Notes: generated by a model not told the origin, from the letters alone. 64,000 bases of DNA from Candidatus Nomurabacteria bacterium (GCA_023267435.1 JAHFNH010000001.1:174839-238838); one strand, 5' to 3'; shown: positions 386-14,338, counted from the first letter of the stretch. Program-made: numbers and translations.

Positions 386-2137
386 CTAGCGGTCGTTTTC
401 AGTGTTGTTTCCTTCACTGTTATCATCGTGTTTACGATCATCTGACCACTTTGCTGCTTTCTTGATCCAGTCTCCGACAATGCCAGTTACTTTATCGTTG
501 TTTTTGCCACTTAAACTAGGGCAACCAAACTTAAGTCTACTGTCATTCTCTTCACCGTCTCTTTTCTTATTGTCTTCTCTATCACTGTCGTTATAATTAC
601 CTTGGTCTTCGTTGTTCTTATCATCGATACTTTCTTTAGTTTGTTTATGGTCGATGATTTGAGCACAACTACATCCTCTGGTGTCAACCAAACTTACAGC
701 TTTTGCTGGAACGATATTTGGCTTCTTGGCTGTTCCAATGTTTGCCATCCAAGTCAATGCACCGTTTACATTAAACACTGCAAGATTGTTTGGCTTCAAT
801 GTTGTAACTGTATCAGCTACAGTTCCAGGACATTGATCAACTTCATCGGCGACTCCGTCTTTATCTGCATCTTTTACTCCGCAAGTAGCTACTACAGGGA
901 ATGACAAAGTTAGTGTTCCTTGATTTGGATCAAGAACAACTCCTACTGTAGTTGCTTCTCTACCAGGGGCTCTGCGTAGGGCAGGGGTTTGTGATTTAGT
1001 CAATTGCATTAATTGATCTACGTTCAATGAACTTGAATAACTTTTTCCACCGTCTGCAGACAATTCATTTGTTTTTGAACCTAAACTAAGAGTTCCTGGA
1101 TCAAAATAGAAATCTCCACCATCTGGTGCTACGTATGTAGTATTTGCTTTTGAAAGTACAACATCGTTTGTTGTTGTAGGTGCAACTGTATCAAACTTCA
1201 ATGTTCCATTTACTGCATCATATACAGCGTTGGTTAATGTGTATGTAGCTTTTGTTGTTACATCCATCATATATATAGTACCTGTTTTTGCTGTCATGTT
1301 GGCATCAAATTTAGGCATCCAATCTATATTGTTTGGAGAAAACTGTACATTTATATTGTCAGATACTAATGATCTTCCATCAAAAATTACTAGACTTAGA
1401 GGTGTTTTAAGTGTTGGATTTGTTTTATCCATAGTAACAGTTGTGTTACAAGGATCAACTGGAGGAGTACAATTATTTACCATTGATAATTTCAATGTTC
1501 CTAAATTGTTATCAGCTACCACAGAAATTTGTGTCACTACTCCTGCTGCATCCTTTACATACAATGTGGAATAATTCATTAATTCTGCTTTACCTAGAGA
1601 AGGAACGAATTTTACATTGTCGACAGAGAATGTAGCCGTTTTTGATGATAATGAAAATGTATTTACATCAAAAGATAAATCCACGCCCTTTACTGTTACT
1701 ATAGGATTTGTTTGTGAAAGTACAACGGTTGTTGTAGCTGTCACAACATCAAATGTAAGGGAAGCTCCTATTATATCAAATTTTGCATTAGTGAATGTTG
1801 TCGCTGCGTCGATAGTCTTTGTTGTTGAATAATAGAATATGCCTGATTTTGACATTAAGGTTGCCATATCAAAAGATTGAAACCAATTAGTTCCATCACT
1901 TGAAAATGCACCATTCATATTATTTGATACTAATGTAGATCTACCGTCATAAGTTATAGTATCTCCTGTGGATGTTGTATAAATGGTGTTTGTCTTATTA
2001 AGACTAACAGTTGTAGGTGGACAATTTGTCACAACCTGACCTCTTGTTAGATTTGCTATATAAACGATACCAGCAATAACAGCGACAGCTGCTAAGCCGA
2101 GGAAAACTTTGTGATGAATTTTATGCATGTTAAACAT
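386..2137 (-). CDS. Large secreted/surface protein with N-terminal signal-anchor and beta-rich S/T/N repeats. It has a thrombospondin type-3-like Ca-binding repeat (DADKDGVADEVDQC) and an acidic low-complexity C-terminus.
   Basis: 583-aa ORF with a hydrophobic N-terminus (LGLAAVAVIAGIVYIA). A DxDxDGxxDxxDxC motif is present. The LRRAPGREA motif is shared with the 1239-aa protein at 37608. Confidence 0.6.
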   Translation of the reverse strand: MFNMHKIHHKVFLGLAAVAVIAGIVYIANLTRGQVVTNCPPTTVSLNKTNTIYTTSTGDTITYDGRSTLVSNNMNGAFSSDGTNWFQSFDMATLMSKSGIFYYSTTKTIDAATTFTNAKFDIIGASLTFDVVTATTTVVLSQTNPIVTVKGVDLSFDVNTFSLSSKTATFSVDNVKFVPSLGKAELMNYSTLYVKDAAGVVTQISVVADNNLGTLKLSMVNNCTPPVDPCNTTVTMDKTNPTLKTPLSLVIFDGRSLVSDNINVQFSPNNIDWMPKFDANMTAKTGTIYMMDVTTKATYTLTNAVYDAVNGTLKFDTVAPTTTNDVVLSKANTTYVAPDGGDFYFDPGTLSLGSKTNELSADGGKSYSSSLNVDQLMQLTKSQTPALRRAPGREATTVGVVLDPNQGTLTLSFPVVATCGVKDADKDGVADEVDQCPGTVADTVTTLKPNNLAVFNVNGALTWMANIGTAKKPNIVPAKAVSLVDTRGCSCAQIIDHKQTKESIDDKNNEDQGNYNDSDREDNKKRDGEENDSRLKFGCPSLSGKNNDKVTGIVGDWIKKAAKWSDDRKHDDNSEGNNTENDR

Positions 2138-3038: not shown

Positions 3039-3242
3039 ACCCTCAAAATGCTAGTATGATCAGTAGTTTTATTAGTTAATCAGTTCGCGTCTAGACACAA
3101 AGTAGTGTTCCATATCTAGGTATACAAAGTGTTAATCAACTAGTCATTCAAGAGGTTAATCACTTGGTTACAGAGATAGAGAAACAATACTGCAGTCTGG
3201 ATACGAACTAAACCTTTTCACAAGAAGTGAAAAGAAAAAAAT

Positions 3243-5363
3243 ATGCACAAGAAAGAGTATTCGATAGAAGTTGGCGGTAAAACATTAACCGCTATTTTTT
3301 CAGATTTGGCAGATCAAGCGCACGGTTCCGTGATGCTGAAATATGGCGAGACGATAGTCCTCGCGACTGCTTGTATGTCGAAAGATAAACAAGCTGGTTT
3401 AGGATTTTTTAATTTAACCGTCGACTATGCAGAAAAGTTTTATGCTGCAGGAAAAATTTTAGGTTCACAATATGTTCGTCGTGAAGGCAAACCTTCGACC
3501 GAAGCCATCCTTGCATCTCGCGTGATCGACAGAACTATCCGTCCTCTCTTTGATCAGAATCTTCGACACGCAGTGCAAGTGATCATCACAGTCATTGCTT
3601 GCGATGATAATGACCCAGCGATGCTTGCGGTGAATGCCGCATCTCTCGCTCTCGTTGTTTCAAACATTCCATGGAAGGGTCCGATCGGTTGCGTACGCGT
3701 CGGAAAGTACGATGACGAAAATTTGAAAATAAATCCTTCAACAAAACTTCGCGAAGAAGAATACCCATACAAATTTGATCTGACAGTTTGTGGAAGAGAA
3801 GGAACTATCAACATGATCGAAGCAGCCGCTCGCCAAGTGAAAGAAGAAGAACTAACCGAAGCCCTCGAACATGCCAGTGCAGAAATAACTAGACTCGAAG
3901 ATTTTCAGAAAAAAATCCAGTCAGAAATCGGCAAAGAAAAGAGAGTAATAATTCATGACAAAATCAGTGAAGAATCTGTCGCTTTATTTAAAGAAAATAT
4001 TTTACCTAAAATGGAAGCAGCAGTTTTCGCTGGTCCTGGAAAAAAGAAAATTGATGAACTTCATAACGAATGGAATAATTTGGTAAAAGAAAAATATATC
4101 AATGGTGACAGAAAAGATTTTCAGCTTGAAGATGATATTTTTGATGAAACAGAAAATGATATGCTTCATGAAAAAGCTATCAAAGAAAACAAACGTGCCG
4201 ATGGTCGCACAATGGATGAAGTGCGTGAACTCTATGCTCAGGCTGGAGGTCTCTCAAAAATTTTGCACGGTTCAGGAATATTTTATCGTGGAGGTACTCA
4301 CGTTCTTTCTGCGCTGACACTTGGTGGACCGGGAGATAAACAAGAAGTGAATGGAATGGATGTTCAGTCTTCACGCAGATTTATGCATCACTACAATTTC
4401 CCTCCATTCTCAGCCGGAGAACCAGGACGAAGCGGATTTACAAATCGTCGCGAGATAGGACACGGAGCTCTCGCTGAAAAAGCTGTCGCGATGGTTTTGC
4501 CTAGTATCGAAGAATTCCCATACACGATTCGTATCGTGTCTGAATCAATGGCATCGAATGGTTCCACTTCACAAGCAAGTATCTGTGCATCAACTCTCGC
4601 GCTCATGGATGCTGGTGTACCGATTAAAAATCCTGTCGCAGGTATTGCGATGGGTTTGATGCATGCGACTGATGATGAATATAAAATTTTGACCGACATC
4701 CAAGGTCCAGAAGATCATCACGGTGATATGGATTTCAAAGTTGCTGGTACTCGTGAAGGTATCACTGCAATACAGCTCGATGTGAAAGTAGATGGTGTGC
4801 CGATAAAAATTCTTTCTGAAGCGATGGCGCAAAGTAAAAAAGCTCGTTTAACAATCCTCGACACAATCGAAAAAGAAATTCCAAAACCTCGCGCAACTAT
4901 TTCTCCAAGTGCTCCAGAAATTTTAGTTATCAAAATCAAACCAGAACAAATCGGGGGAGTCATCGGTTCCGGTGGAAAAATAATTAAAGAGATAAAAGAA
5001 AGAACTGGCGCAGAAATAACTATCGAAGATGATGGTACTGTGTACTTCACAGGTCGTGACGGTTCTGCAGGAAAAGCAAAACAAATCGTGGAAGAAATGA
5101 CACATGAATTCAAACCCGGAGAAATCTTGCAGGGCGAGGTAGTAAAAATTGCCGACTTCGGAGCATTCGTACGTCTGAACTCTGCGACCGATGGTATGGT
5201 TCATATTTCTGAAATTGCTCCTTTCCGTGTAGAACGCGTAGCTGATATAATAAAAGAAGGTATGATCGTGCCGGTGAAAGTCATCGCTATCGATGCACAA
5301 AGAGGAAAGATTAGTCTTTCGATTAAAGAAGCAGACAAAAATTTCTTCGCACCGAAAGTTTAA
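3243..5363 (+). CDS. pnp: Polyribonucleotide nucleotidyltransferase (PNPase)
   Basis: 706 aa. Two RNase PH domains and C-terminal KH and S1 domains are recognisable. It lies in the conserved rpsO neighbourhood. Confidence 0.95.
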   Translation: MHKKEYSIEVGGKTLTAIFSDLADQAHGSVMLKYGETIVLATACMSKDKQAGLGFFNLTVDYAEKFYAAGKILGSQYVRREGKPSTEAILASRVIDRTIRPLFDQNLRHAVQVIITVIACDDNDPAMLAVNAASLALVVSNIPWKGPIGCVRVGKYDDENLKINPSTKLREEEYPYKFDLTVCGREGTINMIEAAARQVKEEELTEALEHASAEITRLEDFQKKIQSEIGKEKRVIIHDKISEESVALFKENILPKMEAAVFAGPGKKKIDELHNEWNNLVKEKYINGDRKDFQLEDDIFDETENDMLHEKAIKENKRADGRTMDEVRELYAQAGGLSKILHGSGIFYRGGTHVLSALTLGGPGDKQEVNGMDVQSSRRFMHHYNFPPFSAGEPGRSGFTNRREIGHGALAEKAVAMVLPSIEEFPYTIRIVSESMASNGSTSQASICASTLALMDAGVPIKNPVAGIAMGLMHATDDEYKILTDIQGPEDHHGDMDFKVAGTREGITAIQLDVKVDGVPIKILSEAMAQSKKARLTILDTIEKEIPKPRATISPSAPEILVIKIKPEQIGGVIGSGGKIIKEIKERTGAEITIEDDGTVYFTGRDGSAGKAKQIVEEMTHEFKPGEILQGEVVKIADFGAFVRLNSATDGMVHISEIAPFRVERVADIIKEGMIVPVKVIAIDAQRGKISLSIKEADKNFFAPKV

Positions 5364-5380
5364 GAAATTAAAAATAAAAA

Positions 5381-5420
5381 ATTCCCCACAAGATCTAATC
5401 TGTGGGGAATTTTGTTTTTC
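5381..5420 (+). terminator. Intrinsic terminator after pnp
   Basis: Stem ttccccaca/tgtggggaa plus a T-run. Confidence 0.7.
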
Positions 5421-5421
5421 A

Positions 5422-6021
5422 TTAAGAATAGTCAAAAACTGCATGTACTTTTTTATCTTCTATAATTTTAAGTTTACGCTTCATTCGCCATTCTTTTTCT
5501 GCTCTTTCATAATTATGTTTTTCTGGCATATTATCTATGCCTGTATTAACAAGTGTTACAAAAGTTTTTAATCTAGTCACATCTTTCTCAAGTGTTTTTA
5601 AAAGAAACATTCCTACATCTGAGGATCCGTCATTCATCATACTTTTAATGAAACCTGAAACATAATGCTTTGGTGAATAGTGCATAAGAGCTTCTCTTAG
5701 ACAATCAATCGCAACAGAATAATTGATTTCTTTATTTTGCTCTTTTGCTTCTTTTATGAAAAAAATCATATTACTTAATTCAGGATGCGGGTAACACAAT
5801 TTTTGTACATAAAATCGTATTAAAGCTTTTTCAAAATATGTATATTTTTTTGATTCACCACTTTTGATTAAATTAAGCATTTTTGAACAATTATCCGAAA
5901 CCATAATTTCATAGAATTTTATTTTTTTCATATGTCCACACGTAAATTCCCAAATTGCAATTACTATTGTAGAGTTCACAAGGGTTATAACCCAATACAA
6001 AGGATCTTTTAATGTTTCCAT
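5422..6021 (-). CDS. Hypothetical protein
   Basis: 199-aa ORF with no recognisable motif. Confidence 0.4.
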   Translation of the reverse strand: METLKDPLYWVITLVNSTIVIAIWEFTCGHMKKIKFYEIMVSDNCSKMLNLIKSGESKKYTYFEKALIRFYVQKLCYPHPELSNMIFFIKEAKEQNKEINYSVAIDCLREALMHYSPKHYVSGFIKSMMNDGSSDVGMFLLKTLEKDVTRLKTFVTLVNTGIDNMPEKHNYERAEKEWRMKRKLKIIEDKKVHAVFDYS

Positions 6022-6213
6022 TTTATTTAATTTTTAAGTTACAAATAACACTATTGTTATTCCGAGATAAGTATAGCAGATTGTCAATATAATGTCAAGT
6101 ATATTCGTCATAATATATTAAAATAATCTATATAAAATAAGCTATAATAATACTATTTAAAATAATGTGGGATTGACTTGACACAGATATAACAAATAAT
6201 ATATACTTAAATT

Positions 6214-6996
6214 ATGAAAAAAGAACTTTCACCAATTGAAAAACAGTTGAAAATAATAGGTCTTTCGGAAAATGAAATCGTTATGTATATGGCGCTTTTG
6301 GAACTTGGAAAAGGGACCGTTTCTCAGATATCAAGAAAAGCATTACTAAATAGAACGACTGGCTATGATGTTTTGAATAGATTGTCGTCAAAAAAACTGA
6401 TTAGTATTTCTGGAAAGGAACCAAAACAAGAATATGTCGCTGAATCACCAGATAATATCGAAAAGTTAATTGCAGGAGAACTGGAACGAAGACAAAATGA
6501 GTTAAATGAAGCAAGACAAATTATTCCAGAGCTTAAATCTATGCACAATGTAAGCGGTCGTCCGCAGATAAGATTTTATGAAGGTAAAGATGGTTTGAAA
6601 CAAGTATACGAAGATACGCTTAGTTCACACGAGCCGATTCTCGCATATGCTAGTGTTGATGATGTTCACGCTGCGCTTCCCGGATATTTTCCAACATATT
6701 ACAAGCGCAGATCGAAAAATGGTATATCTATCAGAGCAATATTTACAGATAATCCTGAAGGACGAGAACTTTCAAAACACGACAAAGAAGAAATGCGTGA
6801 ATCAGCTTTTGTTCCAGAAGATAAATTCGGATTTCACCCTGAAATAAACATTTACGACAATAAAGTGATGATCGCTTCATGGCGGGAGAAATTGGGAATC
6901 ATTATTGAATCAACTGAGATTGCTGATGCGATGAAAAAGATATACGAGCTGGCTTGGGCTGAGGCGAAAAGATTAGATAAGGAAATTACAAAATAA
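6214..6996 (+). CDS. TrmB-family winged-HTH transcriptional regulator
   Basis: N-terminus LKIIGLSENEIVMYMALLELGKGTVSQISRKALLNRTTGYDVLNRL resembles the TrmB HTH. Confidence 0.6.
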   Translation: MKKELSPIEKQLKIIGLSENEIVMYMALLELGKGTVSQISRKALLNRTTGYDVLNRLSSKKLISISGKEPKQEYVAESPDNIEKLIAGELERRQNELNEARQIIPELKSMHNVSGRPQIRFYEGKDGLKQVYEDTLSSHEPILAYASVDDVHAALPGYFPTYYKRRSKNGISIRAIFTDNPEGRELSKHDKEEMRESAFVPEDKFGFHPEINIYDNKVMIASWREKLGIIIESTEIADAMKKIYELAWAEAKRLDKEITK

Positions 6997-7062
6997 AACC
7001 ACTTTACAGTAGCTTTACAGTAATAAAAATACTACTTTACAGTAGATATTATTTCTGATAGA

Positions 7063-8112
7063 ATGGAAATCATGAATGAAGTAATTAAAAAAATTCATAC
7101 TTCTCTTGATAAGGAACCAGCAGGACTAAGGTCTAGTGATATTGCAAAACAAGTCGGAGTATCACGAGTAACTATTCTTTCCCAGTTAAAGAAACTTGAA
7201 AAACAAGGGTTGATTATTCGTTTTGATAATGGACCTAAAACTTGGTATATATTAACCAAACATCAAGATGCTTTATTTCAAAAAGGGCTTTCTTTTTGGA
7301 AAATTTACAAAAACACAAAACTAGAAGAACATATCGTTTTAGAAGAATTACAAAATTACCTTCTTAAAAAGATAAAATTATCTGACCAAGCTAAATCTAT
7401 ATTTGGCTATGCTTTTTCTGAAATGATGAATAATGCGATTGAACATTCTAGGTCCAAAAGAATAAAGGTTGAATGTTCTGTTCAAAAAAAAGATATTATA
7501 TGTGTAATAGAGGATTATGGTATTGGAGCTTTCAATAATGTTAAAACAAAAAAGAGACTTCCAAATGAAACAGAAGCAGCTCGCGAAATTTTGAAGGGTA
7601 AAGTTACCACAGACACAACAGCTCACACTGGACAGGGAATTTTCTTTACTTCACGAGCAACAGACAGGTTTATGATTGAAAGTCATTCCCATGCGATTGT
7701 CGTAGAAAATGAAAATGGAAATAATGTAAGAATAGTAGAATTAAAAAAGAAAATTCGAGGTACTGCAGTTACTTTTTTTATTAAAATAAATACAAAACTT
7801 CATTTAACTAGTGTTTTTAGTAAATATGCGGAAGCTGATATAGATGGATTTAATACAACTGAGATTCATGTTAATTTATATGCAAACGGAGACCATCTTG
7901 TTTCTAGGTCACAAGCAAGACGTATTGTTGTTGGGCTCGATAAGTTTTCAAAAATAATTTTTGATTTTTCAGGAATTGCTCATATAGGACAGGGATTTGC
8001 TGATGAAATATTCAGAGTTTTTGCAAAAAAATATTCAACAATCGAAATAAAACCAATTCATATGAAAAAAGAAGTGAGCTTTATGGTAAGGAGAGCACGA
8101 GCTGAAAAATAA
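7063..8112 (+). CDS. Fusion protein: winged HTH + GHKL/anti-sigma-type ATPase (HATPase_c) + C-terminal STAS-like DUF4325
   Basis: N-terminal wHTH (SDIAKQVGVSRVTILSQLKKLEKQGLI). N-box AFSEMMNNAIEHS and DYGIG of GHKL kinases. C-terminal SRSQARRIVVGLDKFSKIIFDFSGIAHIGQGFADEIF matches DUF4325/STAS. Confidence 0.6.
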   Translation: MEIMNEVIKKIHTSLDKEPAGLRSSDIAKQVGVSRVTILSQLKKLEKQGLIIRFDNGPKTWYILTKHQDALFQKGLSFWKIYKNTKLEEHIVLEELQNYLLKKIKLSDQAKSIFGYAFSEMMNNAIEHSRSKRIKVECSVQKKDIICVIEDYGIGAFNNVKTKKRLPNETEAAREILKGKVTTDTTAHTGQGIFFTSRATDRFMIESHSHAIVVENENGNNVRIVELKKKIRGTAVTFFIKINTKLHLTSVFSKYAEADIDGFNTTEIHVNLYANGDHLVSRSQARRIVVGLDKFSKIIFDFSGIAHIGQGFADEIFRVFAKKYSTIEIKPIHMKKEVSFMVRRARAEK

Positions 8113-8153
8113 ATTTATTGTGTATAATAAAGATATTATTGAATAATTAAAAT

Positions 8154-9005
8154 ATGGAAACAGAAAATAATAAAAAAAATAAAATTGTTAAAACTTATGC
8201 CGAAGATATGGCGAAGGTTATTGAGAGCAACGAAGCTGGAGTTGTGAGAGAGATAATTCATGAAAAGGAAGAGCAGGAAATGCAAAAGGAGAATCTATCT
8301 CCGGAAAGCAAAAGAAACAAAATGTTTATGCTGATCGGCATTGTTTGTATTTTTTTGGCTTTAGGTTCGATTGTTTTTATTGTCGTATTTCGACAGCAAA
8401 TTTTTTCTGTATCAGTCGCTCCGCAGTTCGTGCCGTTGATTTTTACTGACAAGGCGCAATTTGTGGAAGTGGGTGGTTTGGCAAAAGATAAAATCGCTCA
8501 GACAGTCTTAAATGAAGTGAATGCTACACAAGTGAAAGGTGGCGGAGTGGAAGGTATTTATCTGACAGAAAATAAGGCAGTTTTAGGATTGAGAAAATTT
8601 TTAACTCTAATCAAGGCGAATATCGACCAGACTCAGATGCAATTCGTGGATGATAACTTTTTAGTTGGCGTGGCAAAGAATGACACGAATGATTTATTTA
8701 TTTTATTGAAAACTCGTTCTTTTTCCGATATCTTTCCGCAAATGCGTAGTTGGGAACCGAAGATGTTTTCTGATTTGCATGGATTCTTCGGAGTGCCGAT
8801 TTCTGTCGATACGAATTATTTGTTGACCAAAAATTTCGAGGACGGAGTTATTGCTAACAAAAATGCCCGCATTCTTCATGATAAAGACGGCAAGATAGTA
8901 TTGATGTATGTATTTGTGGATGATACGTCTGTATTAATAACCGATACCGAGACAGCCACCAGCGAAGTAATCCTCCGCCTCGCTTCGAGCCAGATTAAGA
9001 AATAG
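8154..9005 (+). CDS. Single-pass membrane protein of unknown function
   Basis: One TM helix (MFMLIGIVCIFLALGSIVFIVVF) followed by a ~200-aa extracytoplasmic domain. Confidence 0.5.
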   Translation: METENNKKNKIVKTYAEDMAKVIESNEAGVVREIIHEKEEQEMQKENLSPESKRNKMFMLIGIVCIFLALGSIVFIVVFRQQIFSVSVAPQFVPLIFTDKAQFVEVGGLAKDKIAQTVLNEVNATQVKGGGVEGIYLTENKAVLGLRKFLTLIKANIDQTQMQFVDDNFLVGVAKNDTNDLFILLKTRSFSDIFPQMRSWEPKMFSDLHGFFGVPISVDTNYLLTKNFEDGVIANKNARILHDKDGKIVLMYVFVDDTSVLITDTETATSEVILRLASSQIKK

Positions 9006-9057
9006 ATCATCAAAATGGGCCATTTGCCATTAATCTTTAAAATGTTATCATACCAGT

Positions 9058-9417
9058 ATGCCATTAGATAAGAAAAAAATTAAAGAAGAATTAGAAAAAG
9101 AGAGAGATATTCTATTAGAAGAAATGAAAGACATGGGTAAATTAAACCCCGAAACAGGCGAATGGGAAGCTACTCCAGAGGAGCAAGACATTCCTGAAGC
9201 TGATCAGAATGATATGGCGGATAGATTTTCGAACTTTGAAGAAAAAAGTTCAATGATTAGAGATTTAGGCGCTAGGTTAAATAATATTTTACGCGCTTTG
9301 AAAGGAGTAAACAGGGAATCATTTGGTAAGTGTGAAGTTTGCAAAAAGCCTATTGAGGCGGCACGTCTTGCAGCTAATCCAGCGGCTCGAACTTGCAAGG
9401 AACATTTAAACAGTTAA
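9058..9417 (+). CDS. DksA/TraR-family C4 zinc-finger protein
   Basis: C-terminal CEVCKKPIEAARLAANPAARTCKEHL, i.e. CxxC-N17-CxxH, with an acidic coiled-coil N-terminus. Confidence 0.7.
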   Translation: MPLDKKKIKEELEKERDILLEEMKDMGKLNPETGEWEATPEEQDIPEADQNDMADRFSNFEEKSSMIRDLGARLNNILRALKGVNRESFGKCEVCKKPIEAARLAANPAARTCKEHLNS

Positions 9418-9429
9418 TTTTTTAAAAAA

Positions 9430-11046
9430 ATGAGTTTCGCAAAAGTTTATTCAGCACAAGTGAATCTACTTTCCGGAGTTATCGTGACTATCGAAGTGGA
9501 CTTGTCCCGAGGTCTTCATGCTTTCAGTATTGTCGGCTTGCCTGACAAGTCCGTCGACGAGTCTAAAGATCGCGTCAGCTCAGCTATCAAAAATTCAGGC
9601 TTTCAATCTCCTAAAGCCAAGAATCAAAAAATAATAGTTTCTTTATCACCCGCAGATCTTAAAAAAGAAGGGTCTTTTTTTGATCTCGGTATCGCACTTT
9701 CTTATATGCTTGCGGCTGGGGATTTGAAATTTAATCCGGAGAAAAAGATTTTCTTAGGTGAACTCGGGCTCGATGGCACTTTGCGCAGGATCAAAGGTGC
9801 TCTGCCTCTCGTGCAGGAGGCGAAAAGAATGGGTTTTGAAGAAGTTTATTTGCCGAAAGAAAATGCAGTCGAGGCGGCGTTGGTGGATGGGATTAAAATT
9901 TTCGGAGCAGGTAGTTTGAAAGAAGTTGTTGACCATATAGATGAAAGCAAACCTAGAAAATTTACTGATGGTCTGGCCGAGCGTACTCGCGAAGGAGAAC
10001 CGAGGACCTCAGAAAATTTTACTAGGTTTGCTGAAGAAGGAAAAATCCCCGTCCAGCCAAAAACAGAAATAAAATATGAAAAAGAAAGAAAAGGTTCCGA
10101 TTTTGCAGATGTTCGCGGACAAGAAGGTGCGAAACGTGGGCTCGAGATAGCCGCTGCCGGCGGGCATAATATAGCTATGTATGGCCCGCCGGGCACTGGC
10201 AAGACGATGCTGGCTCGAGCTTTCTCCGGACTTTTACCGGATTTAATTCTCGAAGATGTTTTGGAAATTACCGGCATACATTCTGTCGCAGGTGCGACGC
10301 GCGGAGAACTCGTTTCTAGTCCGCCTTTCCGTGCGCCACACCATACTTCGTCTTATGTTTCACTTATCGGTGGAGGAACTTTTCCAAAGCCAGGCGAAGT
10401 GACGCTCGCACATAAAGGAGTTTTATTTTTGGATGAATTTCCAGAATTTGAAAAAAGAGTTATTGAATCTTTGCGTCAGCCACTTGAAGACAATATCGTT
10501 TCGATTTCTCGCGCAAAAGGTTCGGCTATTTTTCCTTCGAATTTTATTTTAGTCGCAGCGATGAATCCGTGTCCTTGCGGAAATGCCGGCTCGAAACAAA
10601 AAGCTTGCATTTGCAAACCGTCAGACTTAGACAGATACAAAAGAAAACTTTCCGGCCCGATTATGGATCGTATTGATCTTTGGGTTTCCGTGAATAACAT
10701 TGATTACAAAAAACTTGGTGAAGACGGAATGGGGGAGAAGAGTGAAAATATAAAAGAGAGAGTCTCAAGAGCACGAGAAGTACAGAAAAATAGATTTCAG
10801 AAATTTGAAAGAACTATCAAAACAAACAGTGAGATGAATGTGAAAGATTTATCCAATATGGTGAAGCTAGCTGATGATGTTCGAAATCTTTTAGACAACA
10901 GTGCTGAAAGATTAGCCCTCTCCGCCCGTGCCTATCACCGCGTCATAAAAATAGCCCGCACGATAGCAGACCTTGAAAATTCTGAGGATATAACCTCAGC
11001 GCATATTCTCGAAGCTATACAATATCGTCCGAAAGTAAATAACTAA
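9430..11046 (+). CDS. comM: YifB/ComM-family Mg-chelatase-like AAA+ ATPase
   Basis: Lon-like N-domain, Walker A GPPGTGKT, and the MCM-like zinc insertion CPCGNAGSKQKACIC. Confidence 0.9.
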   Translation: MSFAKVYSAQVNLLSGVIVTIEVDLSRGLHAFSIVGLPDKSVDESKDRVSSAIKNSGFQSPKAKNQKIIVSLSPADLKKEGSFFDLGIALSYMLAAGDLKFNPEKKIFLGELGLDGTLRRIKGALPLVQEAKRMGFEEVYLPKENAVEAALVDGIKIFGAGSLKEVVDHIDESKPRKFTDGLAERTREGEPRTSENFTRFAEEGKIPVQPKTEIKYEKERKGSDFADVRGQEGAKRGLEIAAAGGHNIAMYGPPGTGKTMLARAFSGLLPDLILEDVLEITGIHSVAGATRGELVSSPPFRAPHHTSSYVSLIGGGTFPKPGEVTLAHKGVLFLDEFPEFEKRVIESLRQPLEDNIVSISRAKGSAIFPSNFILVAAMNPCPCGNAGSKQKACICKPSDLDRYKRKLSGPIMDRIDLWVSVNNIDYKKLGEDGMGEKSENIKERVSRAREVQKNRFQKFERTIKTNSEMNVKDLSNMVKLADDVRNLLDNSAERLALSARAYHRVIKIARTIADLENSEDITSAHILEAIQYRPKVNN

Positions 11047-11116
11047 TTTACTTGTTTCACCACAAATGATACTATCTAGATAAATAAACTTATCGTCGAA
11101 CCTTAACATAATCCTT

Positions 11117-11410
11117 ATGGAAACAAATAAACCTAAGTTACCCTTAATCTTTTTAGTGCGCAGAAAATGGAGAAATTCATTGTTTGCAGCCGGTATTCTT
11201 CATTATAAAATAGTTGGTTATAACTATATAGCTCCTGGTAGTAAAATGAGTGAGATTTCTCAAACAGGATGGATACCAATTAGACAGTATAATTTTGAAC
11301 ACCCGTATATGAAGAAAAGAATGGCGGAAGTTCAAAGGAAACAAGAAGAATGTTTAGAGCGAAAAAATGTGGACTGGGAAAGATTAAACAAAATTCGCAT
11401 AACGATTTAA
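11117..11410 (+). CDS. Hypothetical small protein
   Basis: 97-aa ORF followed by a terminator. Confidence 0.35.
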   Translation: METNKPKLPLIFLVRRKWRNSLFAAGILHYKIVGYNYIAPGSKMSEISQTGWIPIRQYNFEHPYMKKRMAEVQRKQEECLERKNVDWERLNKIRITI

Positions 11411-11420
11411 TCGTATGTGA

Positions 11421-11449
11421 AAAACCTGAGATATTCTCAGGTTTTTTTA
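11421..11449 (+). terminator. Intrinsic terminator
   Basis: Stem cctgaga/tctcagg plus a T-run. Confidence 0.65.
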
Positions 11450-11475
11450 ATTTATAGTTATCCACAACTATTTTA

Positions 11476-11504
11476 TTGACAGTGAACGAGCGTTCACTTA
11501 TACT
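11476..11504 (+). promoter_or_regulatory. Sigma70-like promoter (TTGACA-17-TATACT) with a LexA/SOS (Cheo-type) box in the spacer
   Basis: -35 TTGACA at 11476-11481, -10 TATACT at 11499-11504. The spacer contains the perfect palindrome AGTGAACGAGCGTTCACT, which includes GAAC-N4-GTTC. Confidence 0.6.
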
Positions 11505-11547
11505 ATTTATATAAGTCGAGATTAAAAATTTAACTTATAAAAATCGC

Positions 11548-11748
11548 ATGTCACAAACACAATATTTAAAATTATTAGAAAAGGAGATACAACATATCAA
11601 CAAGAAGATTGATATGAAAATAATGCAGGGAGAAGCTTATATGAAAGAGGCGAGAGATCATAAACTTCTTTTGAAAAAAGTGCGTTATCACTCTCGAAAG
11701 AGTTTCTTTAGCAGATTGTTTCCAACTTTTTTTAAATTTCAATTTTAA
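11548..11748 (+). CDS. Small basic protein, candidate SOS-regulated, co-transcribed with lexA
   Basis: 66-aa ORF between the SOS-box promoter and lexA. No homology is recognisable. Confidence 0.3.
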   Translation: MSQTQYLKLLEKEIQHINKKIDMKIMQGEAYMKEARDHKLLLKKVRYHSRKSFFSRLFPTFFKFQF

Positions 11749-11775
11749 ACTTTCTAATTTTTGTTTTAAATTTTT

Positions 11776-12342
11776 ATGCGTAATGTTTACCAAACACAAA
11801 TAGAATCTTTTTACTTGGATAATAAAAGAATGCCCACATATTCCGAAATGATGAAGCTTTTCGGATTCAAGTCAAAGAATGCTATTTTTAAAATTGTAAA
11901 CAAACTGCTCGAAGCAGGTGTCGTGGCAAAAGATCATCTTGGTAGATTGATACCGACAGAGTCTTTCGGAGAGATACCAATGCTTGGCTATGTGACGGCT
12001 GGACTGCCTGCGACTGTGGAAGAAGAATTGACTGACACAATAAAACTCGATGATCTTTTGATACAAAATAAATCTCTGACTTACATGTTGGAAGTTGATG
12101 GCGATTCGATGATCGATGCGCATATTGAAAAAGGAGATATGGTGCTCGTGGAGAAAACGAATCAAGCGAAAGATATGCAGATAGTCATCGCAGAAGTAGA
12201 TGGAGAATATACTATGAAATATTTTCGCAAAGAGGGTAATAAAGTCTGGCTCGAACCAGCTAATAAAAAATACAGTCCGATCTATCCCGAAAATAGTTTG
12301 AATGTCATTGCGGTCTTAAAAGCAGTAATCAGAAAATACTAA
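11776..12342 (+). CDS. lexA: LexA repressor (S24 peptidase)
   Basis: N-terminal wHTH. The catalytic Ser is in VDGDSM and the Lys in MKYF. The length and layout are typical of LexA. Confidence 0.85.
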   Translation: MRNVYQTQIESFYLDNKRMPTYSEMMKLFGFKSKNAIFKIVNKLLEAGVVAKDHLGRLIPTESFGEIPMLGYVTAGLPATVEEELTDTIKLDDLLIQNKSLTYMLEVDGDSMIDAHIEKGDMVLVEKTNQAKDMQIVIAEVDGEYTMKYFRKEGNKVWLEPANKKYSPIYPENSLNVIAVLKAVIRKY

Positions 12343-12356
12343 ATATAAAAATAGGT

Positions 12357-12394
12357 AAAACAAAAGCCACCCGAAGGTGGCTTTTGTTTTTTAT
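12357..12394. terminator. Bidirectional intrinsic terminator (lexA / hup)
   Basis: Stem aaagccacc/ggtggcttt flanked by A- and T-runs. Confidence 0.7.
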
Positions 12395-12408
12395 CTCGAG
12401 ATAAAATA

Positions 12409-12681
12409 TTATTCTACTGCGTCCTTCAAAGCTTTTGCAGCTCTGAATTTTGGAACTTTCTTAGCAGCTACTTTAACTTGCTCTCCAGTCTTTGGATTGC
12501 GAGCCATTCTAGCAGCTCTTGCCTTTACGGAAAAGATTCCGAATCCAGCAATTGATACATCTTCACCCTTTTTCATTGTTCCAACGATACCATCAAAGAT
12601 CGCATCGACGATTTCTTCAGCTTGTACTTTTGTACCGCCTAATTTTGCTTGTACTAATTCAACTAATGCTTGTTTATTCAT
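12409..12681 (-). CDS. hup: HU-family DNA-binding protein
   Basis: 90 aa with the typical HU sequence GFGIFSVKARAARMARNPKTGE. Confidence 0.9.
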   Translation of the reverse strand: MNKQALVELVQAKLGGTKVQAEEIVDAIFDGIVGTMKKGEDVSIAGFGIFSVKARAARMARNPKTGEQVKVAAKKVPKFRAAKALKDAVE

Positions 12682-12878
12682 ATTATTTTTTATATTAATT
12701 AAAATTTAATTGGTAATATTTCGACCTCTTTTTATAAAATAACTACGTATATATTATATACTAAGGGTTTTTTAAGGCAATAGCTTGCGCAAGTTATAAA
12801 TTTATTGATTAATTAATTTTTCTGTGGTAGATTTTGGGCAGATAAATAAAGTTATTCACAATTTTAAACCTTACTATT

Positions 12879-13976
12879 ATGCCGACAATTCAAAAAAAGG
12901 TGGAAGAAATAACCACTAGGCAGGAATTCAATGAATTTCTGCAAGAATGCCAGAAAAACCATAGCATGCCTTATGCTTACGCTAAAGGAGAGGGATTTTA
13001 CGAAGATAATAAACTTATTGCTGTCCGTTGGTTGTCTATTAACGTACAAAAGAATGATGATTTTCTTTCCAATTTAAAGGACAAAAATTCTAATTTTAAC
13101 GAAAAGATCACTAAACCAACCCTTATTTGTTTGAATGAAAATGAAACAATAGGAGAAGCTGTTTGTCGTGAAATTTACTCACCTTTTACAGAAGAAGATT
13201 GCTCTATTATTATGTTATATCCAACAAAGGAATCATTAACGGAAAAAGCACCCACCACAGCTGAAGATGCATTTTGCCGGCTTACCATGATTTCGCGCCT
13301 GGAGTTCAAACCGAATGAATTGAATTTGGATAACATTTTTTCTTTGCTTCCGACTTTAGTTTGGACAATGAAAGGAGTAATGACAGAAGATACATGGAAA
13401 AATGAATTCATGAAAAATAACGTCATTCAACCAATTGCAGTGGATAAGTTTCCCCCTATGTATTGGGGCGCTCCAATACCGAAAGGTGTGCGCATTGCAG
13501 ATCCTTCTCGTGTGCGCTTGGGAGCTTATCTTTCATCTGGGACCACGGTCATGCATGAGGGTTTTGTAAACTTTAATGCCGGCACTTTAGGAGCTTGCAT
13601 GGTTGAGGGCAGGATTTCTGCTGGTGTGGTAGTGGGTAAAGATTCAGATTTGGGCGGAGGATGTTCGATTATGGGCACACTTTCCGGCGGTGGAAAAGAA
13701 AAAATAACCATTGGAGAAAATTGCTTGATCGGAGCTAATGCTGGCACTGGAATTTCACTTGGAGATCGCTGTACGATAGAAGCAGGTTTGTATGTCACGG
13801 TTGGAATGAAAATATTTGTTTCGTCTTCACGTTTTGGTTTTGGTGAAAAAAATTATGTGAATGCGTCCGAACTTTCCGGAAAAACTGATATGCTTTTGCG
13901 TAGAGATTCCCATTCTGGTGTAGTAGAATTGCTTTGGAACGAAAAGCCGAACAAGCTCAACAAAGTTCTTCATTAA
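12879..13976 (+). CDS. Hexapeptide-repeat acyltransferase, DapD-like (tetrahydrodipicolinate N-succinyltransferase, long actinobacterial-type form)
   Basis: Left-handed beta-helix region VRLGAYLSSGTTVMHEGFVNFNAGTLGACMVEGRISAGVVVG recalls long-form DapD. Confidence 0.55.
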   Translation: MPTIQKKVEEITTRQEFNEFLQECQKNHSMPYAYAKGEGFYEDNKLIAVRWLSINVQKNDDFLSNLKDKNSNFNEKITKPTLICLNENETIGEAVCREIYSPFTEEDCSIIMLYPTKESLTEKAPTTAEDAFCRLTMISRLEFKPNELNLDNIFSLLPTLVWTMKGVMTEDTWKNEFMKNNVIQPIAVDKFPPMYWGAPIPKGVRIADPSRVRLGAYLSSGTTVMHEGFVNFNAGTLGACMVEGRISAGVVVGKDSDLGGGCSIMGTLSGGGKEKITIGENCLIGANAGTGISLGDRCTIEAGLYVTVGMKIFVSSSRFGFGEKNYVNASELSGKTDMLLRRDSHSGVVELLWNEKPNKLNKVLH

Positions 13977-13991
13977 TTAAGTTTAAAAATC

Positions 13992-14029
13992 AAAAAAGCC
14001 TTCCGATAAATCGGAAGGCTTTTTCTTTG
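13992..14029 (+). terminator. Intrinsic terminator
   Basis: Stem gccttccgat/atcggaaggc plus a T-run. Confidence 0.7.
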
Positions 14030-14071
14030 TTATTTAATTTTTATCTCGCGTACCCGGTAGTGAGACTTTGA

Positions 14072-14338
14072 TTAAGACTGAACATTTTTTGAAAAATAAT
14101 CTTTCAATCTCATTTTAAACATTCTTCTACCGATACTCGTTTTTAAATACTTTTCTCTACGTCTAGCATCAGACTCTAGTAAACACGCTTCGTAGTATAT
14201 TATTTTCCAAGGTCTGTATGGTTTGGTAGAAATGTTCAGTCCATTGTTATGTTCTTGAAGGCGTCGTTTAAGATCGTTCGTATATCCGAAGTATAATCTA
14301 CCAGTTTCTTTACTTTCAAGACTATAAACGTAGAACAT
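14072..14338 (-). CDS. GIY-YIG nuclease-domain protein (UPF0213-like)
   Basis: YVYSLESKETGRLYFGYTNDLKRRLQEHN is a GIY-YIG signature. Confidence 0.75.
   Translation of the reverse strand: MFYVYSLESKETGRLYFGYTNDLKRRLQEHNNGLNISTKPYRPWKIIYYEACLLESDARRREKYLKTSIGRRMFKMRLKDYFSKNVQS

What the first reader, a model, noticed from the sequence alone, without database searches (positions are those of the whole stretch)
6214..11046. Operon encoding a single-chain partner-switching-like regulator (wHTH + GHKL kinase + STAS/DUF4325) with a TrmB regulator, a membrane protein, a DksA/TraR zinc finger and ComM
Gene 7063..8112 fuses a winged HTH, an anti-sigma-type GHKL ATPase (N-box EMMNNAIEHS) and a C-terminal STAS-like DUF4325. 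Anti-sigma-factor kinases and their STAS antagonists are normally separate proteins. It is flanked by a TrmB-like regulator, a single-pass membrane protein with a large outside domain, and a DksA/TraR-type zinc finger. All have 40-70 bp spacers, and the operon ends in comM. The arrangement reads like a self-contained signal-transduction module: membrane sensor, then kinase/STAS switch, then transcription output. It is unusual for a minimal genome.
Basis: partly seen in the sequence, partly recalled or inferred. Interest (0 to 1): 0.6.

Follow-up and report, generated by a model that had tools for sequence, protein, structure and literature searches.

The report
Self-regulated wHTH–kinase–STAS regulator, not an operon
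The fused DNA-binding/kinase-like/STAS protein is real, but it belongs to a very large uncharacterised family typical of ultra-small (CPR) bacteria that carries a conserved repeat array in its own promoter, and the five neighbouring genes are not a dedicated signalling module.

Summary
The gene calls and domains are confirmed. Gene 7063-8112 encodes wHTH + SpoIIAB/RsbW-like GHKL + STAS-like DUF4325, flanked by a TrmB-like regulator, a single-pass membrane protein, a DksA/TraR zinc-finger protein and ComM/YifB.

The "self-contained five-gene module" reading is not supported.
- The fusion is not rare: at least 961 clusters at 50% identity and at least 589 species, mostly CPR/Patescibacteria.
- Its neighbours change even at 57-60% identity. 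In one locus with the same neighbours the fusion gene is inverted.
- In 4 of 4 close relatives, membrane protein-DksA-ComM directly follow PNPase without the fusion or TrmB. The window's TrmB + fusion pair therefore sits in a variable slot.

What is conserved is the gene plus its upstream DNA. Three exact CTTTACAGTA copies (7002-7044, spacing 11 and 22 nt) overlap a promoter-like site. Of 81 homologous loci, 58 carry at least 3 TT[G/T]ACA copies in the upstream 120 nt, against 0.1% of control windows. The repeats are phased at about 11 nt, and their 3' flank co-varies with the wHTH recognition helix.

Best reading: an autonomous, self-binding one-component regulator with an ATP-dependent GHKL-STAS switch. 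The canonical STAS phospho-serine position holds an invariant Gln. The closest characterised analogue is CapK/CapS. I rate it a new variant of a known kind, of moderate interest.

The parts
7002..7044 (+). Candidate operator array: three exact copies of CTTTACAGTA starting at 7002, 7013 and 7035 (spacing 11 and 22 nt) in the TrmB/fusion spacer.
   Evidence: These are the only exact copies in the 64 kb. Equivalent arrays of TT[G/T]ACA repeats lie upstream of the homologous gene in 58 of 81 loci, against 0.1% of control windows.
7036..7064 (+). Promoter-like site: -35 TTTACA (inside repeat 3), 17 nt, TG-extended -10 TAGAAT. The predicted transcript start is about 7071-7072, which would make the mRNA leaderless from the ATG at 7072.
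   Evidence: (10 of 12 matches, with TG). The transcript start and leaderless status are inferred, not shown.
7063..8112 (+). wHTH-GHKL-STAS(DUF4325) one-component regulator (349 aa; probably 346 aa from the ATG at 7072). wHTH is about aa 1-75, the SpoIIAB/RsbW-like GHKL domain about aa 89-245, and the STAS-like domain about aa 266-349.
6214..6996 (+). TrmB-like regulator (260 aa). A neighbour with its own strong promoter-like site at 6178-6207. It is only loosely associated with the fusion gene: within +-4 genes in 7 of 81 loci, and within 8 kb in 7 of 80 by a separate count.
5422..6021 (-). 199-aa ORF with no family match. It is the third gene in the variable slot between pnp and the membrane-protein gene.
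   Evidence: It has no counterpart in any of the 87 loci or in L088-L091.
8154..9005 (+). Single-pass membrane protein (283 aa, transmembrane segment at about 57-79). First gene of the conserved trio membrane protein-DksA-ComM that follows pnp in relatives. Not part of the regulator unit.
9058..9417 (+). DksA/TraR-type zinc-finger protein (119 aa). Zinc ligands CxxC...CxxH at C92, C95, C113 and H116; DxxDxA-type motif DQNDMA at residues 49-54. Second gene of the conserved trio.
9430..11046 (+). ComM/YifB Mg-chelatase-like AAA+ ATPase (538 aa). Third gene of the conserved trio.
   Evidence: TIGR00368, 561 bits. 77-86% identical in L088-L091.
3243..5363 (+). Polynucleotide phosphorylase. It anchors the conserved backbone S15-NYN-PNPase-membrane protein-DksA-ComM, into which the 199-aa ORF, TrmB and the fusion gene are inserted in this genome.

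Best explanation
Gene 7063/7072-8112, together with the repeat array in front of it, is an autonomous transcription unit. It encodes a one-component regulator that binds its own promoter.

Proposed mechanism:
- The N-terminal wHTH binds head-to-tail to 11-nt-phased direct repeats (CTTTACAGTA here; [G/C]TT[G/T]ACAAT in most relatives). The repeats overlap the -35/-10 region, so occupancy should repress the gene.
- The GHKL domain is a SpoIIAB/RsbW-type ATP-binding or kinase domain with all nucleotide-binding and catalytic motifs intact.
- The C-terminal DUF4325 domain has a STAS fold but carries an invariant Gln where anti-sigma antagonists and CapS carry the phospho-serine. I therefore read it as a non-phosphorylatable internal partner of the GHKL domain: either a pseudo-substrate or a CapK-like regulatory STAS.
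- The GHKL-STAS pair would then act as a nucleotide- or ligand-controlled switch that changes oligomerisation and DNA binding of the wHTH.

The other four genes are not part of this device. Membrane protein-DksA-ComM is a separately conserved trio downstream of pnp. TrmB and the fusion gene occupy a variable slot between pnp and that trio.

Shown by comparative analysis: the domain identities, the size of the family, the lack of conserved neighbours, and the conserved phased repeat array with helix/motif co-variation.

Inferred only: repression, the direction of the ATP effect, what the kinase phosphorylates, the signal, and any targets beyond the gene's own promoter.
For: Domains:
- Pfam.
- Invariant E120, N123, N124, H128, D151-x-G153-x-G155 and H188-x-G190-x-G192-IFF.

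Family size and uniformity:
- 4,412 hits; the best 120 are 338-385 aa.
- 961 clusters at 50% identity with E <= 1e-30.
- At least 589 GTDB species.

No conserved operon:
- Different neighbours at 43-60% identity.
- Within 8 kb in 80 loci: TrmB-like 7, membrane protein 1, DksA 1, ComM 2.
- Unbiased neighbour clustering finds no family in more than 8 of 81 loci. The median upstream gap is about 134 nt.
- L029 has the same neighbours, but the fusion gene is on the opposite strand.
- L088-L091 have PNPase followed, directly or after unrelated genes, by membrane protein-DksA-ComM, with no fusion gene in the locus.

Repeat array:
- Three exact 10-mers at 7002-7044, the only exact copies in the 64 kb.
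- At least 3 TTKACA copies in the upstream 120 nt in 58 of 81 loci, against 0.10% of 8,215 control windows and 0.26% of 771 other ORF upstream regions. Spacing peaks at 11-12, 21-22 and 33 nt.
- No other cluster of the motif in the 64-kb window.
- The 3' flank co-varies with the recognition helix: AT with SRQY (31 of 41), AC with SR[A/V/T]Y (12 of 20, plus one SKAY), GTA with S[R/K][V/P]T (4 of 4). Fisher p = 8e-7 and 1.4e-5, not corrected for phylogeny.

Precedent for an autoregulating STAS/wHTH repressor controlled by an anti-sigma-type kinase: CapK/CapS (PMC13373217).
Against: - There is no experimental evidence of DNA binding, ATP binding or kinase activity.
- TTGACA/TTTACA is also the sigma-70 -35 consensus, so part of the motif signal could reflect promoter architecture rather than a repressor site.
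- The co-variation statistics ignore shared ancestry.
- Only +-8 kb was examined around each homologue, so a wider regulon or a distant partner (a substrate or a phosphatase) could exist.
- Residue-level equivalence of Q310 to the SpoIIAA/CapS phospho-serine rests on fold topology (the start of helix alpha2). A profile alignment to SpoIIAA failed.
pTM is only 0.67.
- In this window there is no terminator-like site between TrmB and ComM, so read-through co-transcription remains possible.
Confidence: 0.7

Rival explanations
1. The five genes form one co-transcribed signalling module in which the membrane protein senses an outside signal, passes it to the kinase/STAS switch, and TrmB and/or DksA deliver the transcriptional output.
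For: - All five genes are on the same strand, with spacers of 12-66 nt and no terminator-like site between them.
- The same five genes are neighbours in L029.
- TrmB-like genes lie within +-4 genes of the fusion gene in 7 of 81 loci, more than the roughly 1% expected by chance.
Against: - In L029 the fusion gene is on the opposite strand from the other four.
- In L088-L091 the membrane protein-DksA-ComM trio is intact directly after pnp, or after unrelated genes, with no fusion gene within 5 kb.
- Homologues at 57-60% identity have entirely different neighbours.
- Membrane protein, DksA and ComM are near the fusion gene in only 1-2 of 80 loci.
- The fusion gene carries its own conserved promoter and repeat array.
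Confidence: 0.06
2. A CapK-like stress or defence controller. [quoted passage not shown] It phosphorylates a target to de-repress genes elsewhere, and the protein is an accessory, mobile stress or immunity regulator rather than a core housekeeping regulator.
For: - It has the same three domain types as CapK (HTH, STAS, GHKL), and it has an array at its own promoter, comparable to CapS, which binds its own promoter (PMC13373217).
- DUF4325 genes are coupled to VapC-type PIN toxins (PMC5499597), which fits the VapK/S/C system.
- The genomic position is variable.
- The most frequent neighbours are Fic-wHTH proteins (8 of 81 loci), and toxin-antitoxin genes are nearby in L007 and L088.
- LexA-like and ComM genes lie nearby in the window.
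- Invariant basic residues (K178, R282, R318; K180, R286 and R287 in at least 90% of sequences) could line a nucleic-acid groove.
Against: - The domain order differs: wHTH-GHKL-STAS against HTH-STAS-GHKL.
- There is no adjacent STAS-wHTH (CapS-like) gene and no conserved downstream operon.
- PADLOC gives no significant hit beyond the generic wHTH.
- Mean column identity of 55% across phylum-level CPR lineages, together with a very uniform length, is more typical of a core gene than of a defence gene.
Confidence: 0.15
3. The repeat array is not bound by the fusion protein. It is either a reiterated promoter (stacked -35/-10-like elements) or the site of another factor such as the TrmB-like regulator, and the wHTH has a different role, for example protein-protein contacts or non-specific DNA binding.
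For: - TTGACA/TTTACA equals the -35 consensus, and TACAAT inside the repeat resembles a -10.
- In CapK, deleting the HTH had no detectable effect.
- In L041 a TrmB-like gene has four TTGACA-like copies upstream.
Against: - The arrays travel with the fusion gene in the 74 loci that have no TrmB-like gene within +-4 genes.
- Other ORF upstream regions almost never have them (0.26%).
- The bases outside the -35-like hexamer co-vary with the recognition helix of this protein.
- The 11-nt phasing is what head-to-tail binding of winged-helix proteins to direct repeats would produce (general knowledge of OmpR/PhoB-type regulators).
Confidence: 0.08

Closest known systems
CapK/CapS (Chambers et al., EMBO J 2026, PMC13373217)
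   Same: Both combine an anti-sigma-type GHKL kinase domain, a STAS domain and an (w)HTH. A STAS/wHTH protein binds repeated sites in its own promoter and is controlled by the kinase. CapS oligomerises along DNA.
   Different: - CapK is HTH-STAS-GHKL and CapS is a separate STAS-wHTH protein. Here a single chain runs wHTH-GHKL-STAS.
- CapS has an invariant Ser on alpha2 that is phosphorylated. Here that position is an invariant Gln.
- capK and capS are always adjacent and usually precede an immune operon. Here there is no conserved partner or downstream operon.
- CapS binds palindromes. The CPR proteins have direct repeats.
- Sequence-level homology to CapK/CapS could not be tested because I had no sequences for them.
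SpoIIAB/SpoIIAA and RsbW/RsbV partner-switching modules
   Different: The domains are fused into one chain with a DNA-binding domain. No sigma factor partner is evident. There is no phosphorylatable Ser/Thr at the start of alpha2. No PP2C phosphatase gene is nearby.
Mycobacterium tuberculosis Rv1364c (PDB 3ke6)
   Different: From my own knowledge of the protein, Rv1364c also carries a PAS sensor and a PP2C (RsbU-like) phosphatase, has a phosphorylatable Ser, and has no wHTH. The family here has a wHTH and no PAS or PP2C domain.
Fic-wHTH proteins (SoFic-like) in the same genomes
   Same: An enzyme domain fused to the same kind of wHTH, each with direct or inverted repeats just upstream of its own gene. 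In L053 the Fic gene carries the same CTTTACAA repeats at 11-nt spacing.
   Different: The enzyme is a Fic AMPylase-type domain and the wHTH is C-terminal. Most of these genes have unrelated repeat sequences.

Membership tests
Pfam DUF4325 (PF14213, STAS clan) | Score above the Pfam gathering threshold | tested here: met
   43.3 bits against a cutoff of 23, residues 287-338. The precomputed PF14213 hit is present in nearly all homologues.
SpoIIAB/RsbW-type anti-sigma serine kinases (HATPase_c_2) | Bergerat-fold GHKL domain with N-box (E..N..H), G1 (DxGxG) and G2 (GxG) motifs | tested here: met
SpoIIAB/RsbW-type anti-sigma serine kinases (HATPase_c_2) | Binds and inhibits a cognate sigma factor | not testable with these tools
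   No sigma factor gene is among the recurrent neighbours. Binding itself cannot be assessed from sequence.
SpoIIAB/RsbW-type anti-sigma serine kinases (HATPase_c_2) | Full-length match to the equivalog models (spIIAB TIGR01925, RsbW NF003144) | tested here: not met
   17.5 bits against a cutoff of 135, and 14.8 against 145.
Anti-sigma-factor antagonists (SpoIIAA/RsbV-type STAS) | STAS fold | tested here: met
Anti-sigma-factor antagonists (SpoIIAA/RsbV-type STAS) | Conserved phosphorylatable Ser/Thr at the N-terminus of helix alpha2 | tested here: not met
   Helix alpha2 begins at residue 310 in both models. G309 and Q310 are invariant, and there is no conserved Ser/Thr in the beta3-alpha2 loop or the first turn of the helix. 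The equivalence rests on topology only, because the profile alignment to SpoIIAA failed.
CapK/CapS regulators | CapK domain order HTH-STAS-GHKL | tested here: not met
   The order here is wHTH-GHKL-STAS. The CapK order is taken from PMC13373217.
CapK/CapS regulators | An adjacent capS gene (STAS-wHTH) immediately downstream, usually followed by an immune operon | tested here: not met
   No recurrent STAS-wHTH neighbour and no conserved downstream operon in 81 loci. In the paper all 443 capK genes are followed by capS.
CapK/CapS regulators | Kinase activated by single-stranded DNA | not testable with these tools
   This needs biochemistry.
One-component transcription regulators | A DNA-binding domain and an input or enzymatic domain in one polypeptide, with a cognate operator | tested here: met
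   wHTH plus GHKL-STAS in one chain. A conserved phased repeat array at the gene's own promoter co-varies with the recognition helix. Binding itself is inferred.
Five-gene operon or module (TrmB-fusion-membrane protein-DksA-ComM) | Gene order and co-orientation conserved in related genomes | tested here: not met
   The order is found only in L029, and there the fusion gene is inverted. The membrane protein-DksA-ComM trio is conserved without the fusion gene, and without a TrmB gene between pnp and the trio.
Five-gene operon or module (TrmB-fusion-membrane protein-DksA-ComM) | A single promoter with no internal promoters or terminators | tested here: inconclusive
   There is no internal terminator-like site, but promoter-like sites lie before the fusion gene (7036-7064) and before dksA (9024-9051), in addition to the one before trmB (6178-6207). 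Consensus scans are not evidence of function.
YifB/ComM (TIGR00368) | Score above the curated cutoff | tested here: met
   561 bits against 362.
DksA (RNA polymerase-binding, equivalog models) | Score above the curated cutoff for DksA or DksA-like models | tested here: not met
   NF033459 41.1 bits against 105; TIGR02420 35.8 against 115.5; yteA TIGR02890 47.1 against 134.4. Only the zinc-finger domain passes (PF01258, 33.6 against 24.9). A DxxDxA-type motif (DQNDMA, residues 49-54) is present.

The most novel reading that the evidence does not exclude
The family is a CPR-wide master regulator that works as a single-chain partner switch. The GHKL domain would alternate, according to ATP/ADP (energy charge) or a CapK-like nucleic-acid signal, between holding its own non-phosphorylatable STAS domain and releasing the wHTH to polymerise on -35-like TT[G/T]ACA arrays. 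It would thereby compete with sigma-70 region 4 at promoters, in organisms that have very few other regulators. If so, it is a new mechanistic class of one-component regulator and one of the first cis-element/regulator pairs defined for the Candidate Phyla Radiation.
Probability: 0.15. Interest if true: 0.8.

Novelty: new variant of a known kind. Interest (0 to 1): 0.5.

Why it matters
Almost nothing is known about gene regulation in CPR/Patescibacteria, which make up a large share of bacterial diversity and have very few recognisable regulators.

This analysis turns an anonymous "DUF4325 domain-containing protein" into a defined regulator family:
- It has at least 961 clusters at 50% identity.
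- It has a predicted DNA motif, a predicted autoregulatory architecture and a helix/base co-variation. All of these can be tested with a purified protein and a 45-bp probe.

It also extends the theme recently shown for CapK/CapS, an anti-sigma-type kinase plus STAS domain controlling a DNA-binding domain, to a fused and permuted form that probably does not use the canonical phospho-serine. That form sits outside the defence islands where the theme was discovered.

For genome annotation, it is a warning that same-strand, tightly packed genes in minimal genomes should not be read as functional operons without checking synteny.

Tried and rejected
1. Defence-system membership. PADLOC gave only generic wHTH hits (CasR/Csa3, E about 1e-5) and a weak SoFic hit, with nothing for the GHKL-STAS part.
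2. Solved relatives by sequence. phmmer and profile searches of the PDB gave only weak wHTH (CodY, AspA) and histidine-kinase hits, with no STAS hit. The C-terminal domain alone gave only noise, matching stomatin at E about 1.
hhalign gave a probability of 0.1%, so the result is unusable.
4. A regulon search. No second cluster of the motif exists in the 64-kb window. Only 10 non-own clusters were found in 1.09 Mb of loci, and most look like chance. The exceptions are a Fic-wHTH gene in L053 and a duplicate array in L075.
5. A shared operator between the fusion gene and neighbouring Fic-wHTH genes. Rejected, because 6 of the 7 Fic genes have different repeats or none of this type.
6. The 336-aa minus-strand gene in the pnp/membrane-protein slot of L091 as an inverted fusion homologue. 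Rejected: no phmmer hit and no Pfam hit.
7. An AFDB50 fold search for the full architecture. The library was not available.
8. Source names for the window's proteins. The cluster look-up returned none.
9. Literature. "DUF4325" appears in only 3 papers, each time in passing. No paper describing this architecture in CPR was found.

Full report
**1. Observation**

Pfam gives:
- 6214-6996: a TrmB-type HTH, 49.5 bits.
- 7063-8112: HTH_24 at residues 4-51, HATPase_c_2 at 92-207 and DUF4325 at 287-338, all above the gathering thresholds.
- 8154-9005: no family match.
- 9058-9417: the DksA/TraR zinc finger.
- 9430-11046: the ChlI / Mg_chelatase / Mg_chelatase_C triad.

NCBIfam identifies 9430-11046 as YifB/ComM, with 561 bits against a cutoff of 362. 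The 8154-9005 product has a single hydrophobic segment at about residues 57-79.

The spacers are 66, 41, 52 and 12 nt. No terminator-like site lies between 6214 and 11046. The first one on this strand is at 11419-11447.

**2. The fusion protein is a member of a very large, uniform family**

A word-indexed search found 4,412 homologues. The best 120 are all 338-385 aa, and nearly all carry PF14213 plus PF13581 or PF02518. The source names they carry come from Patescibacteria, Kaiserbacteria, Gracilibacteria and Ryanbacteria.

An exhaustive profile search of 1.84 billion cluster representatives gave 961 clusters with E <= 1e-30 and 2,240 with E <= 1e-10. Almost all of the listed hits are full length.

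These cover most CPR lineages, plus MAGs labelled Omnitrophota, Deltaproteobacteria, KSB1, Krumholzibacteriales, Coriobacteriales, Saganbacteria and Planctomycetia.

Mean column identity in a 40-sequence alignment is 55%. The invariant residues are:
- E120, N123, N124, H128 and S129 (N-box);
- D151, G153 and G155 (G1);
- K178, G179, T182 and T183;
- H188, G190, G192 and I193-F-F-T196 (G2);
- S281-R-S-Q-A285;
- D301, G309, Q310, F312, D314;
- R318-V-F320.

The architecture is therefore typical of CPR genomes, not unusual for a minimal genome.

**3. Structure**

The AlphaFold2 model has a mean pLDDT of 85.2 and a pTM of 0.67. Confidence is low only in the ATP lid (residues 180-188) and in the linker (259-265).

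**4. The canonical phospho-site is absent**

In SpoIIAA, RsbV and CapS the phosphorylated serine sits at the start of the second helix of the STAS domain (PMC13373217). In both models that helix starts at residue 310.

G309 and Q310 are invariant across the family. No Ser/Thr is conserved in the preceding loop or in the first turn of the helix.

A sequence-level alignment to SpoIIAA could not be obtained, so this equivalence rests on topology. A classical partner switch through Ser phosphorylation at that position is therefore unlikely.

The conserved surface (S281-R287, G309-E315, R318) still argues for a specific partner. The most economical candidate is the protein's own GHKL domain.

**5. 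The five genes are not a conserved module**

Homologues at 43% identity sit between RNase Y and ClpP, or between an ammonium transporter and a 2,043-aa protein. Homologues at 57-60% identity sit next to EPSP synthase and an aldehyde dehydrogenase, or next to the CCA-adding enzyme and an Exo_endo_phos protein.

In 80 species-level loci with +-8 kb of flank, homologues of the window's neighbours occur as follows:

| Neighbour | Loci of 80 |
|---|---|
| TrmB-like | 7 |
| Membrane protein | 1 |
| DksA | 1 |
| ComM | 2 |

Unbiased clustering of all genes within +-4 positions finds no family in more than 8 of 81 loci. The top three are Fic-wHTH (8), TrmB-like (7) and NYN (6).

The one locus that shares all four neighbours, L029, has PNPase(-), TrmB(-), fusion(+), membrane protein(-), DksA(-), ComM(-). 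The fusion gene there is inverted relative to the rest, so it cannot be co-transcribed with them.

The membrane protein belongs to its own well-conserved family: 806 hits, from Paceibacterota, Nomurabacteria and Minisyncoccia. In 4 of 4 long contigs from relatives the order is (S15-NYN-)PNPase, then a slot, then membrane protein-DksA-ComM, with S24/LexA-like, HU and RNase Y genes in varying combinations further downstream. There is no fusion gene within 5 kb, and no TrmB gene lies between pnp and the trio; L089 has a TrmB-like gene further downstream on the other strand. Identity to the window is 77-86% for ComM and 73-84% for DksA.

The slot contents are:

| Locus | Between pnp and the membrane-protein gene |
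|---|---|
| L089, L090 | Empty; the membrane-protein gene abuts or overlaps the pnp stop |
| L088 | EamA plus a YafQ-like toxin-antitoxin pair |
| L091 | An unrelated 336-aa gene |
| L029 | TrmB plus the inverted fusion gene |
| Window | The 199-aa ORF, TrmB and the fusion gene |

The window has the same backbone: S15 at 31-300, NYN at 2448-2990 and PNPase at 3243-5363. The apparent operon is therefore a composite. It consists of a conserved trio downstream of pnp plus genes that occupy a variable slot.

**6. What is conserved with the fusion gene is its upstream DNA**

The 66-nt TrmB/fusion spacer contains three exact copies of CTTTACAGTA, starting at 7002, 7013 and 7035 (spacing 11 and 22 nt). 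These are the only exact copies in the 64 kb.

Repeat 3 supplies the -35 (TTTACA) of a promoter-like site with a TG-extended -10 (TAGAAT, 7059-7064). The predicted transcript start coincides with the ATG at 7072 (Met4), which is where homologues begin. A leaderless mRNA is therefore plausible, but this is an inference.

Across 81 non-redundant loci:
- The 120 nt upstream of the homologous gene contains on average 2.7 forward TT[G/T]ACA copies. Control windows of 120 nt contain 0.13.
- 58 of 81 loci have at least 3 copies. Among controls, 0.10% of 8,215 windows and 0.26% of 771 other ORF upstream regions do.
- Successive copies are 11-12 nt apart (63 cases), 21-22 nt (54 cases) or 33 nt (5 cases), so they lie on one face of the helix.

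In most CPR loci the unit is [G/C]TT[G/T]ACAAT[T][A/G] (114 sites). In many non-CPR-labelled MAGs the motif appears instead as an inverted pair, GTTGACAAC...GTTGTCAAC, around a -10.

The bases 3' of the hexamer co-vary with the start of the recognition helix:

| 3' flank | Recognition helix | Count |
|---|---|---|
| AT | SRQY | 31 of 41 |
| AC(TT) | SR[A/V/T]Y | 12 of 20 (plus one SKAY) |
| GTA (the window's clade) | S[R/K][V/P]T | 4 of 4 |

Fisher p is 8e-7 for AT/AC against Q/non-Q, and 1.4e-5 for GTA against a Thr at the fourth position. Neither value is corrected for shared ancestry.

No other cluster of the motif exists in the window.

I conclude that the wHTH binds these repeats and that the protein regulates its own promoter. 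The conclusion rests on comparative evidence only.

**7. Mechanism**

Shown:
- an intact ATP-binding and catalytic motif set of a SpoIIAB-type GHKL domain;
- a STAS fold that lacks the canonical acceptor;
- a wHTH paired with a co-varying, phased operator that overlaps the promoter.

Inferred:
- Binding represses transcription.
- The GHKL-STAS pair acts as an intramolecular switch, driven by ATP/ADP or by a ligand, that controls oligomerisation on the repeats. In this picture the Gln-bearing STAS is either a pseudo-substrate or a regulatory partner, like CapK's internal STAS, which forms the ssDNA-binding groove together with the kinase domain (PMC13373217).

Unknown: the signal, any phospho-acceptor, and any targets beyond the protein's own promoter. 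Invariant S281/S283 at the start of alpha1 and the near-invariant S34 at the start of the recognition helix are candidate acceptors.

**8. Comparison with known systems**

The closest characterised analogue is CapK/CapS. CapK is an ssDNA-activated HTH-STAS-GHKL kinase. It phosphorylates the STAS-wHTH autorepressor CapS on Ser54, which dissolves the CapS dimer and releases it from DNA.

The CPR family differs in several ways: the domain order is permuted, everything is in one chain, there is no adjacent CapS-like gene, there is no downstream immune operon, and there is no alpha2 serine. It therefore plausibly works like CapK/CapS but is not a member of that family.

Rv1364c shows that kinase-STAS fusion is not new.

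DUF4325 genes were previously noted only as being coupled to a VapC subgroup (PMC5499597). That fits the VapK/S/C system described in the CapK paper.

I found no paper describing this architecture or its operator.

**9. Verdict**

The operon-as-module interpretation is not supported.

The real feature is an autonomous, self-binding wHTH-GHKL-STAS regulator that belongs to a very widespread, uncharacterised family, most of it CPR. I rate it a new variant of a known kind.

Interest is moderate (0.5). The fusion itself is common and has precedents. The conserved operator array and the helix/base co-variation, however, give a directly testable handle on regulation in CPR bacteria.

Noticed in passing
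window 3218-12706 (25 nt upstream of each of 11 gene starts): None of the 11 genes from pnp to hup has a Shine-Dalgarno-like motif (GGAG, GAGG, AGGA or AAGG) in the 25 nt before its start codon. The upstream regions are A/T-rich, which suggests SD-independent or leaderless initiation in this genome.
   Followed up: partly
L053:1143-2218 (- strand); also L078:3843-4895, L084:5110-6027, L049:1457-2398, L014, L024, L036: Fic-domain proteins (HPFxxGNGR motif), most of them with a C-terminal wHTH, are the most frequent neighbours of the fusion gene (8 of 81 loci). Several carry their own direct or inverted repeats just upstream. In L053 these are three CTTTACAA copies at 11-nt spacing, the same motif as that genome's fusion gene. 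In L078 they are three copies of GCGCGATTCTT.
   Followed up: partly
window 5364-8153 compared with L088, L089, L090, L091 and L029: The interval between pnp and the membrane-protein gene is a variable slot in this lineage. It is empty in two relatives, holds EamA plus a YafQ-like toxin-antitoxin pair in a third, and an unknown 336-aa gene in a fourth. In L029 it holds TrmB plus the inverted fusion gene, and in the window it holds a 199-aa ORF plus TrmB plus the fusion gene.
   Followed up: yes
window 386-2137 (-) and 5422-6021 (-): Two minus-strand ORFs (583 aa and 199 aa) have no Pfam hits (the 199-aa one was also negative in NCBIfam and PADLOC). They interrupt the otherwise conserved plus-strand backbone S15-NYN-PNPase-membrane protein-DksA-ComM and look like lineage-specific insertions.
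   Followed up: partly
window 9058-9417: The DksA/TraR-like protein has CxxC...CxxH (C92, C95, C113, H116) instead of four cysteines, and a DxxDxA-type motif (DQNDMA, residues 49-54) like the coiled-coil tip of DksA. It scores far below the curated DksA and yteA cutoffs. Its gene is always followed by comM in the relatives examined.
   Followed up: partly
L075:12403-12443: A second copy of that locus's own operator-like array (GGGTTGACAAATGAATTTTATTTAGGTTGACAATGTGGTTGACAAT) lies 4.5 kb downstream of the fusion gene, with no obvious + strand ORF after it.
   Followed up: no
L041:13350-13385: Four TTGACA/TGTCAA copies in mixed orientation lie immediately upstream of a TrmB-like gene (13405-14133). 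TrmB-like genes lie within +-4 genes of the fusion gene in 7 of 81 loci, several of them adjacent and convergent (L029, L070).
   Followed up: partly
window 6070-6207: The divergent intergenic region between the 199-aa ORF and trmB holds two near-consensus promoter-like sites, one on each strand (TTGACA-17/18-TATACT, 11 of 12 matches). It also holds a 22-nt imperfect inverted repeat (6093-6114 / 6162-6183) that overlaps both -35 elements.
   Followed up: no
L010, L012, L027, L041, L050, L063, L085 (record titles): Several MAGs that carry a typical CPR-type copy of the gene and operator are titled "uncultured Gammaproteobacteria", "Pseudomonadales" or "Pseudomonadota". These labels may be wrong, so the apparent non-CPR distribution should be checked against GTDB taxonomy.
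   Followed up: no
window 11776-12342 and 12409-12681: A LexA-like S24 peptidase (only a weak LexA DNA-binding match) and HU lie just downstream of comM, and the same is true in relatives. ComM, the LexA-like gene and HU form part of the same conserved backbone.
   Followed up: no
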